Origin: Phyllobates terribilis
Lineage: Eukaryota
DNA length: 64,000 nt
Direction of reading: 5' to 3'
Assembly (NCBI RefSeq): GCF_046119375.1
Contig: NW_027362771.1
Location: 5,022,001-5,086,000 of the forward strand
Positions within the stretch are counted from its first letter, which is position 1, and every line of letters starts with the position of its first letter. Positions 3,001-24,000 of this stretch are shown here, in pieces. The position numbers are program-made.

Positions 3001-6000
3001 TAATTCACGTTACCTACCAGGTACCCGATCCACCTGTTAAGCGATCGGTGGTGGCAGTATACCAGTATTTATGTGATATTGTGGTTTGAGGGTGGCTGGT
3101 CGGAGGTATATATACGTTCCTGGAAGGAACTGGTGGTATATATACGTCCTGTCACATCACGTGCCGCAATAGTCGACATAAACTAGAGCAGCTGCACCCG
3201 TGCTTATCCTCGGTCAATACCATGTTTGACCAGCAGGATAAGGGGGCACCAGAGAGCTGCAAGGTCTGACCCAAAAGTGGGTGTCGTTTTCCTGACAACT
3301 TCCTTCCATGGTTCAAGAAGAAGAACAGTGCATTTCGCAGCAAGATCATTTTCATGCATGATAATGCCCCGACTCATGCTGTACATAACACATCTGCATC
3401 TCTGGCTGCTATGGGCATAAAAGGGAACAAACTTATGGTGTGGCACCCATGCTCCCCTGACCTCAACCCCATTCAGAACCTCTGAAGCATCATCAAAAGG
3501 AGTGTCTATGATGGCGGGAGGCAGTTCACATCTAAGCAACAGCTCTGGGAGGGTATTCTGTCCTCATACAAAACAATTGAAGCAGAAACCATCCAAAACC
3601 TGACAAATTTAATGGATGAGAGAGTTCAGAAGCTCCTTTCGAACAAGCGGTCCTATGTGCAAATTTAACATCACCTAGAATAAAGTTTTGAGTTGAAAAC
3701 TGTTTGATTTCGGTTTGTAATAACCTGCTAATGCTTATAATTGCAAAAAATACCATTTTTTTGTTCTTTATTAAAATGAAAAAGTTGAAAACTCTGCGGT
3801 GCATAATAATTTGGAAGATGCATTTTGAGTGCAGTTTGAGTTTTTTAATTTTTTAAAAATATAACGTTATCATAGGCAGTTTGAACAAAAACCTTTCAGT
3901 TGTACTCTAATAGTTATTTGACTGGAAAATTACAATGAATGCAATTCATAAAGGCAATTTGGGAAAATCTGAGAAAATATTATTTGCATAATAATTTGGA
4001 ACACAGTGTATATAAGTTCCTGGAAGGAACTGGTGGTATATATACGTCCTGTCACATCACGTGCCGCAATATTCGACATAAATTAGAGCAGCTGCACCCG
4101 TGCTTATCCTCAGTCAATACCGTGTGTGACCAGCAGGATAAGGAGGCGCCAAAGAGCTGCAAGGTCTGACCCAAAAGTGTGTACGGTTTCATGACAGGGA
4201 ATTCTGAATTTTTTTGCTTTTTCCTCCTCCTTTTAGCATGCTAAAGAAGATTTAAAGAGGGTGAGCTGCTATCTGTTTGCGTTCAGCCAATACCTTCAAC
4301 CATTTCTGATATATGAGTAACAGGACGGTTTTCAATGGCTAAAATCAATGAATAATGTCATTGCACAAACAGTCATTTCTCTGCTTGGAAAGGTGGAATT
4401 CTGAAATTTTTTGCTTTTTCCTGCTCCTTTTAGCATGCTAAAGAAGATTCAAAGAGGGTGAGCTGCTATTTGTTTGTGTTCAGCCAATACCTTCAACCAT
4501 TTCTGGCATATGAGTAACAGGACGGTTTTCAATGGCTAAAATCAATGAATAATGTCATTGCACAAACAGTCATTTCTCTGCTTGGAAAGGTGGAATTCTG
4601 AAATGTTTTGCTTTTTCCTGCTCCTTTTAGCCTGCTAAAGAAGATTCAAAGAGGGTGAGCTGGTATTTCTTTGCGTTCAGCCAATACCTTCAACCATTTC
4701 TGATATATGAGTAACAGGACGGATTTCAATGGCTAAAATCAATGAATAATGTCATTGCACAAACAGTCATTTCTCTGCTTGGAAAAGTGGAATTCTGAAA
4801 TTCTTTGCTTTCTCCTGCTGCTTTTAGCATGCTAAAGAAGATTCAAAGAGGGTGAGCTGCTATCTGTTTGTGTTCAGCCAATACCTTCAACCATTTCTGG
4901 TATATGAGTAACAGGACGTTTTTCAATGGCTAAAATCAATGAATAATGTCATTGCACAAACAGTCATTTCTCTGCTTTGAAAGATGGAATTCTGAAATTG
5001 TTTGATTTTTCCTGCTCCTTTTAGCATGCTAAAGAAGATTCAAAGAGGGTGAGCTGCTATCTGTTTGCACTCAGCCAATGCCTTCAACAATTTCTTGTAC
5101 ATGACTAACAGGACGTTTTTCAATGGCTAAAATCTATGAATAATGTCATTGCTCAGTCATTTTTCTGCTTTGAAAGGTGAAATTATGATTTTTTTTGCTT
5201 TTTCCTGCTCCTTCTAGCATTCTAAAGAAGATTCAAAGAGGGTGAGCCGGTATCTGTTTGCGGTCAGCCAATACCTTCTACCATTTCTGCTATATGATTA
5301 ACAGGACGGATTTCAATGGCTAAAATCAATGAATAATGTCATTGCTAGTGTTGAGCGATACCTTCCGATATCGGGAAATATCGGATCGGATTGGATCGGA
5401 CCGATACCGAAAAAGTATCGGATATCGCCAATTCCGATACCGGAAACCAATGCAAGTCAATGGGACAGAAATATCGGAATGAAAATAAACCCTTTCTTTC
5501 CTTGTAGGTTAATTCTACATGAAGGAAAACAACTAAGAATAATGTAGAATGTATTGGGGGAGGTGGGGGAGACAAAAAAGGCATAGAGGTTTAGCCCAAT
5601 CAAATGGAATAGCAGGAATTAATATTTTTTTTAAGAAGTTCTGAGTTACGGAAATATTGACTATGTTAAGTATTTTTATATTTTGTCAGATATTTATGTT
5701 TCACTACTTCCATGCTCTTCACCTTCTTTTTTACTTCTCCCACACTTTCTCCTTCATCATCCTCAGCATCTTTTTCATCCTCTTCTTCTTCACCTTCTTC
5801 ATCTTCTTCTTCTTCACCTTCTTCGTATTATTCTTTTTTTTTACATTCTTCATATTCTACTTCTTCATCTTCTTCATATTCTTCTTCTTCATCATATTCT
5901 TATTTGTGACAGGCATTCCTGTAGTTGTTATCTATAAAAGGTTGGACATTACACCTTTCGTTCTGCCCGTCACAAAAGATTTACAACAGGATTTGTCCGC

Positions 6001-21000: not shown

Positions 21001-24000
21001 ACATGCCTTACTCCCTGCCTTCTTCATCTTGGCAGACTGATAAAGATAGGCAGAAAAGTACTAAGGGCTTAGTGTGCTTATTCCTGAACAGCTGCTAAGA
21101 GGTATAAGAAACACTAATTTTATAAAGTGTGGACTAGACTTTAATATGAGCTAATGTGGCCTACACAACTGTAAAGTGGAGTGTTTGGTGAACTTTATTT
21201 AGGTTTTTTTTGTCACAAAAAGACACTGGATGTGCCTAAAGATGTAATAACGATAGTATCACAAACTTTTTGTAGCTATTACAATGTAGGAAGGTAACCT
21301 ACAATGCAATAGATGAGGCTGCAAAAAATAGGCTAATACTAATCTGGCTGGGGCTGCAGGGCCCAATGCTGCAGAAAGGCTCCTCTAACTACTCCTATAT
21401 AGTGTGTTTGGAACCAATTTAGCTGAATACGGATGGAACCACCACACTAATAGGAGAAATCAGGAAAAATTATGAATTGGCAAAAAAGGACAATGTATGA
21501 GGCAGTGACACACACTGAGTGCACTACAACCAGACGTGGTTGAAGCACACACTACAGGGTGAGCTGCACTCACACACCAGACCTTGCAGACAGCGGTGAA
21601 CAGTACAGATGCAGAGCACTGTGCACTAGCGCTGCAAGACCAAAAAAATTTCTCTATCTACTCCTATATAGTGTGTTTGGAACCAATTTAGCTGAATACG
21701 GATGGAACCACCACACTAATAGGAGATATCAGGAAAAATTATGAATTGGCAAAAAAGGACAATGTATGAGGCAGTGACACACACTGAGTGCACTACAACC
21801 AGACGTGGTTGAAGCACACACTACAGGGTGAGCTGCACTCACACACAGAGACCTTGCAGAAAGCGGTGAACAGCACAGAGAACTGTGCACTAGCACTGCA
21901 AGGCACAGCGATTTATAAAGTAGCTTGGGTAAAGCAGAATAGACCAAATAGGTAGCTAAAACTGTCCCTCAGAACAACAGCGTCCTATCCCTAACTGAAT
22001 TCACAGCAGACTGAGCTCAAAATGGCGGCGGCGGCTTTTATAGTGCATCATGACATCATTTCAGCAGCCAATCACAGCCATGCCATTAGTTAAGATGCCT
22101 ACATGCCTAACAGGATGTGCCCACACTTCTTAGGATCCTCATTGGCTGAATAAAATGAAAATGGCTCATTGCATTATGGGAACTTCCGATTCCGGTATAC
22201 GATATTGCAAAAGTATCGGAATTAAGTATCGGAATTCCGATACCGCGAATATCGGCCGATACCCGATATTTCAGTATCGGAATGCTCAACACTACTTATT
22301 ATATATGTGACTGACATGTTTCTATCTATCTAATCTATGTGTGATGCTCTATTCTTTCTGCTCTAAATTGTTGGGTACCGATGCTGAAATGCCGGCCGGC
22401 TTTTTAAAAGAGACGGTGCATGAAAACACTATTATTTTTTTTAATAAATCCTTAAACACTAAATGACAAGTACAGTAACCAACACTGTCACTGTACTTTT
22501 TATATATGTGACTGACATTTTTCTAGCTATCTAATCTATGTGTGATGCTCTATTCTTTCTGTTCTAAATTGTCGGGTACCAGTGTATGCCGCTGCTGAAT
22601 TGCTGGCTTTTCATGTTTCACTGTGAGCACTGTTCCCATCGATTTGGGCAATAACTGTAATGCCACAACCACCATGGCTGTGACATTACATTGCAGACAA
22701 TCCCTGCATGATGTGAAAAAATCCAGTTACGCTTTTGGTGCACGAACAGTTATCGAACATAACCTCGAATAGCCAAATTTTTTGCAAATCATTCGCATTC
22801 GTCGAACGACTCGAACACAGCCCAAAACAGCTCGAATTTGAGATTGGCGAACAGTTCTAGTCAAACACCGCTCATCTCTACACAGGACAGAAGCAGCTGA
22901 ATGAATTCTGAGCCATACTGTGTGCTCAGATCCAGCCAAATGCAGCCAAATTAATTGGTCGTCGTTTCATACTACAGATGGACAATGACCCAAAACATAA
23001 AGCCAATGCAACCCAGGAGTTTATTAAAGCAAAGAAGTGGAATATTCTTGAATGGCCAAGTCAGTCACCTGATCTCAACCCAATTGAGCATGCATTTCAC
23101 TTGTTAAAGACTAAACCTCAGACAGAAAGGCCCACAAACAAACAGCAACTGAAAACCACCGCAGTGAAGGCCTGGCAGAGCATCAAAAAGGAGGAAACAC
23201 AGCGTCTGATGATGTCCATGAGTTCAAGACTTTAGGCAGCCATTGCCAACAAAGGGTTTTCAACCAAGTACTAGAAATGAACATTTTATTTACAATTATT
23301 TAATCTGTCCAATTACTTTTGGTCCCTTTAAAAACAGGGTGGCACATGTTAAGGAGCTGAAACTCCTAAACCCTTCATCCAATTTTAATGTGGATACCCT
23401 CAAATGAAAGCTGAAAGTCTGAACTTCAACTGCATCTGAATTGTTTTGTTTAAAATTAATTGTGGTAATGTCTAGAACCAAAATTAGAAAAATGTTGTCT
23501 CTGTCCAAATATATATGGACCTAACTGTATACACTGCTCAAAAATATAAAGGAAACACTCAAATAACACATCTTAGATCTGAATGAATGAAATATTCCCA
23601 TTGAATACTTTGTTCTGTACAAAGTTGAATGTGCTGACAACAAAATCACGCAAAAATCATCAATGGAAATCAAATTTATTAACCAATGGAGGCCTGGATT
23701 TGGAGTCACCCCCAAAATTAAAGTGGAAAAACACACTACAGGTTGATCCAACTTTGTGTAATGTCCTCAAAACAAGTCAGAATGAGGCTCAGTATTGTGT
23801 GTGGCCTCCACGTGCCTGTATGACCTCCCTACAACGCCTGGGCATGCTCCTGATGAGGTTGCGGATGGTCTCATGTGGGATCTCCTCCCAGACCTGGACT
23901 AAAGCATCTGCCAGCTCCTGGACAGTCTGTGGTGCAACGTGACGGTGGATGGAGCGAGACGTGATGTCCCAGATGTGCTCAATTGGATTCAGGTCTGGGG

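What the first reader, a model, noticed from the sequence alone, without database searches (positions are those of the whole stretch)
5346..22294. 17-kb hAT element, about two-thirds tandem array
Seen: matching TIRs and the same subterminal motif at both ends enclose a 3.4-kb transposase remnant and about 11.5 kb of arrays 3' of it. The second hAT (54616 onward) has a different array in the same position. Established: hATs are usually a few kb, and satellites can arise inside DNA transposons. Inference: this lineage has a 3' region that repeatedly seeds and disperses satellites.
Basis: partly seen in the sequence, partly recalled or inferred. Interest (0 to 1): 0.65.

Follow-up and report, generated by a model that had tools for sequence, protein, structure and literature searches.

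The report
Dead frog hAT transposon swollen by arrays
A broken jumping gene of the hAT type in a frog genome carries about 11 kb of tandem repeats just after its transposase gene, a tidy example of a known way in which mobile elements give rise to repeat arrays; whether it ever moved in this form is unproven.

Summary
An exact 11-bp inverted terminus (5346 and 22294), TATCGG/CCGATA clusters at both ends, a full-length but broken BED/hAT transposase gene (17656-21027, minus strand) and 10,977 bp of arrays (65% of 16,949 bp; 68% with minisatellites) are all present.

The arrays begin 62 bp past the gene's end and run to about 1.3 kb from the 3' terminus. They are one evolving family: a 66-bp motif built into a 1,393-bp higher-order repeat, and a very regular 203-bp array.

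A second, related hAT (54616 onward) has an unrelated 52-bp array starting about 180 bp past its transposase. That makes 2 of 2 transposase-bearing copies in the window.

Three caveats:
- There is no target-site duplication. The left end cuts a 197-bp satellite mid-unit, and that satellite does not resume on the right. The 17-kb unit is therefore rearranged, recombinant or misjoined.
- No source of either array motif was found in the elements' unique sequence.
- No eukaryotic DNA collection was open, so dispersal is untested.

Tandem arrays inside mobile elements are well documented (Ogre 3' UTR, frog FEDoR, miDNA4, oyster Helentrons). An unrelated LTR-type element in this window also holds arrays.

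Verdict: real, ordinary in kind, a new member of a known kind.

The parts
5346..22294 (-). Element 1 (E1): a hAT-type element of 16,949 bp between same-family termini. It is oriented by its transposase, so the 5' end is at 22294 and the 3' end at 5346.
22284..22294 (-). 5' terminal inverted repeat of E1, 11 bp exact
22094..22283 (-). 5' subterminal cluster of TATCGG/CCGATA motifs
   Evidence: 4 TATCGG and 3 CCGATA in the terminal 200 bp
21995..22085 (-). Block in the 5' non-coding part that is conserved with E2 (54816-54905) at the same distance from the terminus. It contains CCAAT-like and TATA-like strings. Reading it as a promoter is inference.
   Evidence: score 34 against 21.8 +/- 2.2, maximum 30 in 200 shuffles
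21383..21902 (-). Two-copy tandem duplication in the 5' non-coding part: 21383-21638 and 21652-21902, 94.6% identical
17656..21027 (-). Broken transposase gene of E1. It is full-length against relatives, with 2 frameshifts and 1 in-frame stop.
20062..20199 (-). BED zinc-finger domain of the E1 transposase
   Evidence: PF02892, E = 5.7e-09
17670..17900 (-). hAT C-terminal dimerisation domain of the E1 transposase (approximate bounds)
   Evidence: PF05699, E = 1e-10; nucleotide match to E2 at 57903-58058
17594..17655 (-). 62 bp of unique sequence between the end of the gene and the first array
12693..17593 (.). 203-bp array of 24.2 copies with a five-unit higher-order period. A 66-type block is embedded at 13426-13724.
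6617..12714 (.). Array of the 66-bp family, organised as a 1,393-bp higher-order repeat (597 + 796 bp) with eight copies of a 286-bp spacer
5748..6561 (.). Pyrimidine-rich minisatellites with periods of 6 to 60 bp. There was no Pfam match for the open frame on the minus strand.
5346..5546 (+). 3' terminal inverted repeat (5346-5356) and 3' subterminal TATCGG/CCGATA cluster of E1
4198..5345 (.). Flanking 197-bp satellite of 5.8 copies, cut mid-unit by the E1 terminus. It lies outside the element.
54616..64000 (+). Element 2 (E2): a related hAT. Its 5' terminus is at 54616-54626 and its 3' end lies beyond the window.
55424..58083 (+). Broken transposase gene of E2, more decayed than that of E1
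58264..58534 (.). Two copies of a 133-bp unit at the start of the E2 arrays
58518..64000 (.). 52-bp array (104-bp dimer period) of at least 5.5 kb that runs off the window

Best explanation
E1 is a dead, autonomous-type hAT transposon of a frog-wide BED-finger clade. The non-coding tract between its stop codon and its 3' subterminal repeats has been inflated to about 11 kb by tandem amplification.

**Shown.**
- The ends belong to one family.
- The gene is full-length but broken.
- The arrays start 62 bp after the gene and stop about 1.3 kb before the 3' terminus.
- The arrays form one related family: a 66-bp motif, the 133/199/265-bp periods and a 1,393-bp higher-order repeat built on it, and a 203-bp unit related to it.
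- A related element, E2, has an unrelated 52-bp array at the equivalent site.

**Inferred.**
- This tract is needed neither for coding nor for end recognition, because the arrays carry none of the TATCGG motif. It therefore tolerates duplications.
- Replication slippage and unequal exchange then built and homogenised the higher-order repeats.
- Much of this growth happened in place after the copy had settled. Higher-order copies are 99% identical, and the 203-bp array has 21 of 22 intervals of exactly 203 bp.
- The mismatched flanks mean that the locus was later rearranged, or that E1 is a recombinant between two copies of the same family.
For: **Ends.**
- Terminus and motif clusters.
- The end begins TAGTG. 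The hAT terminal pattern YARNG is recalled, not taken from a call.

**Gene.**
- BED finger: E = 5.7e-09.
- hAT dimerisation domain: E = 1e-10.
- Hermes transposase is the only kind of solved-structure match: 4 of 4 hits, E about 3.5e-05.
- 58 homologues were found. The best is Ranitomeya variabilis 'ZBED4-like' at 80% identity.
- Coverage of relatives is full-length, with 3 aligned pieces in 2 frames and 1 in-frame stop.

**Arrays.**
- Periods and bounds.
- 1,393-bp autocorrelation of 0.753.
- Eight copies of the 286-bp spacer at 96-100% identity, and 7168-8560 against 8561-9953 at 99.0%.
- 203-bp array regularity and five-unit period.
- The 203-bp unit is related to the 66-bp family, with score 36 against 19.1 +/- 2.2 and a maximum of 30.
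- A 66-type block is embedded in the 203-bp array.

**Position.**
- No terminus-like site lies between gene and array in either element.
- There is no TATCGG or CCGATA between 5546 and 17730.
- No inverted or direct repeat joins the two array borders, so a nested foreign element is not indicated.

**E2.**
- Protein identity to E1 is 28-65% by segment.
- A conserved 5' block lies at the same offset from the terminus.
- 89 of 97 array intervals are 52 bp.
- Its array is unrelated to the E1 arrays, scoring at shuffle level.
Against: - There is no target-site duplication (4 of 8). The left flank is a satellite unit cut mid-way, and its remainder is absent from the right flank and from the rest of the window. 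The two ends cannot be shown to be partners of a single insertion.
- No array motif could be traced to unique sequence of either element. An origin inside the element is therefore not shown.
- The 3' end of E2 is outside the window, so 'inside the element' is unproven for E2.
- The sample is two elements in one 64-kb window.
- Translated array frames found no convincing relatives. The 66-family frame had none, and the 203-bp frame had one weak hit to a protein with a 48-residue repeat.
- Growth in place rather than before arrival rests on array homogeneity only and is not calibrated.
Confidence: 0.6

Rival explanations
1. Two separate partial copies with host satellite between them. A 3'-truncated autonomous copy (about 17.6-22.3 kb) and an unrelated solo 3' end of the same family (5346 onward) happen to bracket a pre-existing host satellite. 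On this reading the arrays are not element cargo.
For: - There is no target-site duplication and the flanks are discontinuous.
- The window is rich in arrays and transposon fragments, including a third hAT-like end at 22560-22880 and a fourth fragment at 48918-49088.
- The array motifs have no detectable source in the element.
Against: - It needs two independent truncations, in E1 and in E2, each within about 60-180 bp after the transposase. Each would have to be followed at once by a different array on the same side.
- The left end has the right orientation and the same motif family as the right end.
- No terminus-like site follows either gene.
Confidence: 0.2
2. Assembly misjoin. Long near-identical arrays caused two loci to be joined or collapsed, so the 17-kb unit does not exist as such.
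For: - The flanks do not match.
- Higher-order copies are 98-99% identical and the 203-bp array is extremely regular. Such sequence is hard to assemble.
Against: - The two array types are interleaved: a 66-type block lies inside the 203-bp array and there is a graded junction at 12693-12714.
- Base-composition skew is uniform across 8-18 kb.
- No N or gap is present.
- This cannot be tested without reads.
Confidence: 0.1
3. Nested foreign element. A different array-carrying mobile element, of the FEDoR or Helentron kind, inserted into the 3' part of the hAT.
For: - Such array-carrying elements exist in frogs (PMC12054243, sections 21 and 25 read).
- The 286-bp spacer and the 5500-6600 stretch have no known identity.
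Against: - There are no inverted or direct repeats between the two array borders. The best score was 18, against 20.3 +/- 2.2 in shuffles.
- E2 would need a second, unrelated nested insertion at the same place.
Confidence: 0.07

Closest known systems
Hypervariable 3' UTR of Ogre (Ty3/gypsy) retrotransposons as a source of satellites such as PisTR-A (Macas et al. 2009). Seen only as cited in passages of review PMC9659126; soybean Ogre minisatellites PMC3305785 seen only in the listing.
   Same: - The tandem repeats sit in the non-coding tract just 3' of the coding region.
- Related elements carry different arrays at the same place.
   Different: - Ogre is an LTR retrotransposon of plants, not a cut-and-paste hAT of a frog.
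- There, the arrays were also shown as free-standing satellites. Here that is untested.
FEDoR, the dispersed repeat with internal tandem motifs in Rana temporaria (PMC12054243, sections 21 and 25 read)
   Same: - It occurs in a frog genome.
- It is a DNA-transposon-like unit holding several different internal tandem arrays.
- The authors report about 150 bp of hAT similarity in its flanking region.
   Different: - FEDoR is about 3.5 kb with no open reading frame and a 22-bp monomer.
- It was found as 43 conserved copies, all with target-site duplications.
- E1 carries a full-length, though broken, transposase gene, about 11 kb of arrays with 66-203-bp units, and no duplication.
- The supplement listing FEDoR's hAT match could not be opened.
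miDNA4 (Xenopus tropicalis MITE with an embedded tandem motif) and Xstir. Cited in PMC12054243 section 25 and in PMC9659126 passages; the original papers were not read.
   Same: These are frog DNA transposons that carry a tandem repeat between their inverted ends.
   Different: - They are Tc1/mariner-type, 300-600 bp and non-autonomous.
- Most copies have a single motif.
Helentron non-autonomous elements (CgHINE) carrying satellite-like central repeats in oysters. From a PMC9659126 passage; PMC11136912 seen in the listing only.
   Same: The arrays are carried inside a mobile element, and different arrays occur in related elements.
   Different: - They are rolling-circle elements of an invertebrate.
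- Their dispersal was documented genome-wide.
Canonical hAT elements (Hermes and the Ac/hobo group)
   Same: - Short inverted termini and subterminal short repeats.
- A BED finger, a Hermes-like catalytic region and a hAT dimerisation domain.
   Different: - They are usually a few kb. E1 is 16.9 kb, and about 6 kb without the arrays.
- No 8-bp duplication was detected for E1.

Membership tests
hAT superfamily | Short terminal inverted repeats (the terminal pattern YARNG is recalled, not from a call) | tested here: met
   An 11-bp exact inverted terminus that begins TAGTG. The same 13 bases occur at the E2 terminus.
hAT superfamily | 8-bp target-site duplication | tested here: not met
   For E1 the flanks are GTCATTGC and CTTATTAT, 4 of 8 matching. 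The left flank is a cut satellite unit that does not resume on the right. E2 is not testable because its 3' end is outside the window.
hAT superfamily | N-terminal BED zinc finger | tested here: met
   PF02892: E1 E = 5.7e-09, E2 E = 6.5e-09.
hAT superfamily | RNase-H-like catalytic region related to known hAT transposases | tested here: met
   All 4 solved-structure matches are Hermes transposase, E about 3.5e-05. There are 58 homologues, most of which carry PF27039 and PF05699. The copy of Pfam searched here gave no match for the 724-residue frame. Catalytic residues were not examined.
hAT superfamily | C-terminal hAT dimerisation domain | tested here: met
   PF05699: E1 E = 1e-10, E2 E = 7.4e-11.
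hAT superfamily | Short subterminal repeats at both ends | tested here: met
   TATCGG: 8 of 11 window occurrences lie in the two terminal 200 bp. CCGATA: 6 of 10.
Transposon-borne tandem arrays (Ogre 3' UTR, FEDoR, miDNA4, CgHINE kind) | The array lies between the element's own ends | tested here: inconclusive
   For E1 the arrays lie between same-family ends, and no terminus sits between gene and array. The ends are not proven partners, because there is no duplication. The far end of E2 is unseen.
Transposon-borne tandem arrays (Ogre 3' UTR, FEDoR, miDNA4, CgHINE kind) | Several dispersed copies carry the same array | not testable with these tools
   No open collection holds frog DNA. There are no other copies of the units in the window.
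Satellite DNA in the strict sense | Long head-to-tail arrays with homogenised units and higher-order periods | tested here: met
Satellite DNA in the strict sense | High genomic abundance at independent loci | not testable with these tools
   Only this window is available. Searches with translated array frames were negative or unconvincing.

The most novel reading that the evidence does not exclude
A clade of frog hAT transposons has an unconstrained tract just after the transposase. This tract repeatedly gives birth to new tandem arrays, with a different motif in each lineage. Array-laden copies were spread to many loci while the family was active, so the family acts as a nursery and carrier of satellites and adds to the very large genomes of poison frogs. 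The mismatched flanks of E1 would then be a scar of ectopic exchange between two dispersed copies that carried the same arrays.
Probability: 0.25. Interest if true: 0.6.

Novelty: new member of a known kind. Interest (0 to 1): 0.35.

Why it matters
The origin of new satellite repeats, and the causes of the very large genomes of some frogs, are open descriptive questions. A preprint reports that hAT elements make up 3.91% of the Dendrobates tinctorius assembly (passage seen).

If many hAT copies carry kilobases of private arrays, two things follow. Repeat annotation would under-count transposon-linked DNA, and part of the 'satellite' fraction would have a traceable birthplace.

The review passages seen (PMC9659126) list mostly non-autonomous elements as satellite sources. 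In that review 'hAT' occurs only in two reference titles. A transposase-bearing hAT would therefore extend the catalogue but would not change the concept.

Tried and rejected
- **197-bp flank satellite derived from the hAT end?** The score was 29 against 19.1 +/- 2.1, with a maximum of 32 in 200 shuffles. Not accepted.
- **Array units elsewhere in the window?** Apart from one 33-bp coding-region match to E2, none were found at E <= 0.01 with word size 7.
- **Seed of the E2 array in the adjacent 133-bp unit?** The junction reads suggestively. The score was 20 against 15.4 +/- 2.2, with a maximum of 27 in 500 shuffles. Not significant.
- **Seed of the E1 arrays in the unique flanks?** 23 of 500 and 21 of 500 shuffles reached the observed scores. 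Marginal, not accepted.
- **Nested foreign element?** The array borders share no repeats.
- **Spacer or arrays as RNA genes or SINE heads?** There were 0 Rfam matches at gathering score and 0 tRNAs in the whole window.
- **Translated array frames.** The 66-family frame (185 aa) gave 0 hits among 704 candidates. The 203-bp frame (108 aa) gave 1 hit in 1.84 billion representatives (E = 7.7e-06). That hit is a protein with a 48-residue repeat, a different period, and was judged unconvincing.
- **Acidic/basic open frame on the minus strand at about 6.1-6.6 kb.** It had no Pfam match and is read as a minisatellite.
- **Partner for the third hAT-like end at 22880.** None was found at up to 2 mismatches beyond chance level.
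- **Tool errors.** One search failed on a search-term sign and was corrected. One search came too early for the ticket.
- **Collections not used.** The genome-contig collection holds only bacteria and archaea and was not used.

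
Full report
**What the window is.** The window has no N and is a mosaic of mobile-element remains.
- The longest open frame of the finding's transposase gene (724 aa) has 58 homologues at E <= 0.001 among 8,000 scored candidates.
- The best homologue is a Ranitomeya variabilis protein named 'zinc finger BED domain-containing protein 4-like' (E = 2e-273, 80% identity over 74% of the query).
- Every named hit down to about E = 1e-36 is from a frog: Ranitomeya, Dendrobates, Phyllobates, Anomaloglossus, Engystomops, Leptodactylus, Dendropsophus, Lithobates, Leptobrachium, Hyperolius, Xenopus and Eleutherodactylus. One snake protein and one fish protein follow.
- I take the window to be anuran, probably from a poison frog. 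It is not human.

**The ends.**
- TAGTGTTGAGC occurs exactly three times: at 5346 (+), at 22284-22294 (-) and at 54616 (+). One given 11-mer is expected 0.03 times.
- An 11-bp inverted pair by itself is not remarkable, since about 488 such pairs are expected in 64 kb. The case rests on context.
- TATCGG has 8 of its 11 window occurrences, and CCGATA 6 of 10, inside the two terminal 200-bp stretches. The binomial tail is 4e-16.
- The two ends align locally with score 36, against 17.6 +/- 2.1 and a maximum of 26 in 300 shuffles.
- The end at 54616 shares the first 13 bases but has other subterminal strings and no TATCGG. The ends at 5346 and 22294 therefore belong to one family, and the end at 54616 to a sister family.

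**The gene.**
- The transposase lies on the minus strand. Seven frog relatives aligned to the window cover 17656-21027 (3,372 bp). One of them, of 1,135 residues, is covered from first to last residue.
- The gene is broken. It shows three aligned pieces in two frames and one in-frame stop, that is two frameshifts and one stop, with no large loss.
- Pfam finds a BED finger (E = 5.7e-09) and a hAT dimerisation domain (E = 1e-10).
- All four solved-structure matches are Hermes transposase (E about 3.5e-05).
- The copy of Pfam searched here has no model that matches the catalytic part, although the relatives carry a precomputed PF27039.
- In the gene's orientation, 22294 is the 5' end and 5346 the 3' end.
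- A block about 200-300 bp inside the 5' end is conserved with the second element at the same offset. The score is 34 against 21.8 +/- 2.2, with a maximum of 30. It holds CCAAT-like and TATA-like strings. Reading it as the promoter is inference.

**The arrays.** Sixty-two bases after the gene's end the sequence becomes tandem and stays so for 10,977 bp (6617-17593). This is 64.8% of the 16,949-bp unit. With 543 bp of pyrimidine-rich minisatellites at 5748-6561 the share is 68.0%.
- **The 203-bp array (12693-17593).**
  - There are 23 unit anchors, and 21 of 22 intervals are exactly 203 bp. The one 401-bp interval holds an embedded block of the other array type (13426-13724).
  - There is a five-unit higher-order period, with 96% identity at lag 5 against 92% at lag 1.
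- **The 66-bp family (6617-12714).**
  - Blocks of a loosely conserved 66-bp motif alternate with eight copies of a 286-bp spacer (96-100% identical).
  - The spacer copies lie at spacings of 597, 796, 597, 796, 597, 531 and 862 bp. This gives a 1,393-bp higher-order repeat with an autocorrelation of 0.753.
  - Neighbouring copies of that repeat are 99.0% identical.
- **Relation between the two arrays.** The 203-bp unit is related to the 66-bp family, with score 36 against 19.1 +/- 2.2 and a maximum of 30. The whole stretch is therefore one evolving family.
- **No end motif.** The arrays contain none of the subterminal motif.
- **No RNA genes.** They are not recognised RNA genes: there were 0 Rfam matches and 0 tRNAs.

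**The second element.**
- From 54616 a related hAT reads on the plus strand. It has a BED finger (E = 6.5e-09) and a dimerisation domain (E = 7.4e-11).
- Transposase homology spans 55424-58083. It falls into four or five pieces in two or three frames, with two to five in-piece stops depending on which of the seven references is used. One stretch of roughly 200 codons has no counterpart.
- It is 28-65% identical in protein to the first element, by segment.
- About 180 bp after the last conserved residue there are two 133-bp units. A 52-bp array follows, with 89 of 97 intervals of 52 bp and a 104-bp dimer period. It runs off the window after at least 5.5 kb.
- Its unit is unrelated to the arrays of the first element, scoring at shuffle level.
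- Both transposase-bearing hAT copies in the window therefore have an array starting within 200 bp of the gene's end, on the same side, and the arrays are different.
- Neither copy has a terminus-like sequence between gene and array. None of the 16 window matches at up to 3 mismatches falls there.

**What does not fit a clean 17-kb insertion.**
- The 8-bp flanks differ: GTCATTGC against CTTATTAT, 4 of 8.
- The left terminus sits inside a unit of a 197-bp satellite (4198-5345, 5.8 copies, 92% matches). In all four complete full-length units the bases after GTCATTGC continue with a further 30 bp. That continuation is found neither at 22295 nor anywhere else in the window.
- The satellite therefore pre-dated the arrival of this end, and the present right flank is not its other half.
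- Three readings remain: the locus was rearranged after insertion, E1 is a recombinant between two same-family copies, or the assembly joined two loci inside the arrays. I cannot tell these apart without reads or other copies.
- At the second element, by contrast, the terminus is confirmed as a true boundary. The sequence up to 54615 is an inverted copy (85.5%) of 49424-49745 and stops exactly one base before the terminus.

**Origin of the motifs.** I looked for a source of each array motif in the unique sequence of the elements and found none that stands up. No repeats link the two array borders, which argues against a nested foreign element.

**Mechanism.**
- The best reading is that the tract between the stop codon and the 3' subterminal repeats is free of constraint. 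Short duplications there were expanded and homogenised by slippage and unequal exchange.
- The near-identity of the higher-order copies and the indel-free 203-bp array point to recent growth, probably in place. This step is inference and is not calibrated against the age of the gene's breaks.
- That the same thing happened with another motif in a sister family is shown for two of two copies in this window and no further.

**Comparison with what is known.**
- Tandem arrays born inside mobile elements are well documented. Passages of review PMC9659126 list the hypervariable 3' UTR of Ogre retrotransposons, frog MITEs (Xstir, miDNA4) and oyster Helentrons. They state that non-autonomous elements prevail as sources. 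'hAT' occurs in that review only in two reference titles.
- In Rana temporaria, FEDoR is a 3.5-kb dispersed unit without an open reading frame. It has four internal tandem motifs and target-site duplications in all 43 copies, with about 150 bp of hAT similarity in its flanking region (PMC12054243, sections 21 and 25 read).
- A preprint on Dendrobates tinctorius gives hAT as 3.91% of the assembly and does not contain the words satellite or tandem (passages only).
- My searches listed no paper on a transposase-bearing hAT with kilobase arrays after the gene. These were keyword searches of open papers only and do not show that none exists.
- Tetris (PMC4079207), PMC7004042, PMC3305785 and PMC11136912 were seen as listings and abstract starts only.

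**Context that tempers the 'lineage' claim.** An unrelated LTR-type element at about 29954-40154 also holds internal arrays: a 171-bp array of 6.1 copies and two 49-bp arrays of 6.3 copies each, inside a 1,308-bp duplication that is 99.8% identical. Arrays inside mobile elements may therefore be a habit of this genome rather than of the hAT clade. That stretch and the pol-like frame at 1-2085 are the virus-like parts of the window, and they were only described.

**Verdict.** The thing is a new member of a known kind. What stayed unchecked is the family census, insertion polymorphism, read support for the junctions, and the far end of the second element.

Noticed in passing
window 1-2085 (+): An open 695-residue pol-like frame with reverse transcriptase, RNase H and integrase-C/SH3 matches runs off the window start. 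It is an LTR-retroelement-like (virus-like) stretch and was described only.
   Followed up: partly
window about 29954-40154: Direct repeats at 29954-30395 and 39560-40154 (85-89%) bracket reverse-transcriptase and integrase-C pieces on the minus strand. Inside lies a 1,308-bp duplication (31205-32512 and 34402-35709, 99.8%). It flanks a 171-bp array of 6.1 copies, and each copy of the duplication holds a 49-bp array of 6.3 copies. Tandem arrays therefore also sit inside a second, unrelated element type.
   Followed up: partly
window 22560-22880 (-): Fragment of the 5' end of a third hAT-like family, with terminus TAGAGATGAGCGG. Its subterminal part matches E2 with score 61 against 18.1 +/- 2.0. 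No partner end is in the window.
   Followed up: yes
window 49424-49745 and 54305-54615: An inverted pair (85.5%) whose right arm stops exactly one base before the E2 terminus. These may be the long inverted ends of a roughly 5.2-kb unknown element beside which, or into which, E2 inserted. A 320-residue open frame at 52089-53048 between the arms has no Pfam match.
   Followed up: partly
window 48918-49088: An isolated 57-residue fragment of a hAT transposase, 54-63% identical to the frog relatives and 60% identical to E1.
   Followed up: no
window 22912-25014: Tc1/mariner remains on both strands, with DDE_3 and HTH_Tnp_Tc3_2 matches.
   Followed up: no
window 22293-22379 and 22494-22580: An 87-bp direct repeat (94%) begins right at the right edge of E1. 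Its second copy is preceded by a string that shares CAACACT with the E1 terminus. This is unexplained.
   Followed up: no
window 3106-3297 and 4006-4196: A 192-bp direct repeat (92%). Its second copy ends just before the 197-bp satellite starts at 4198.
   Followed up: no
window 21383-21902: A two-copy tandem duplication (94.6%) in the 5' non-coding part of E1. Tandem growth is therefore not confined to the 3' tract.
   Followed up: no
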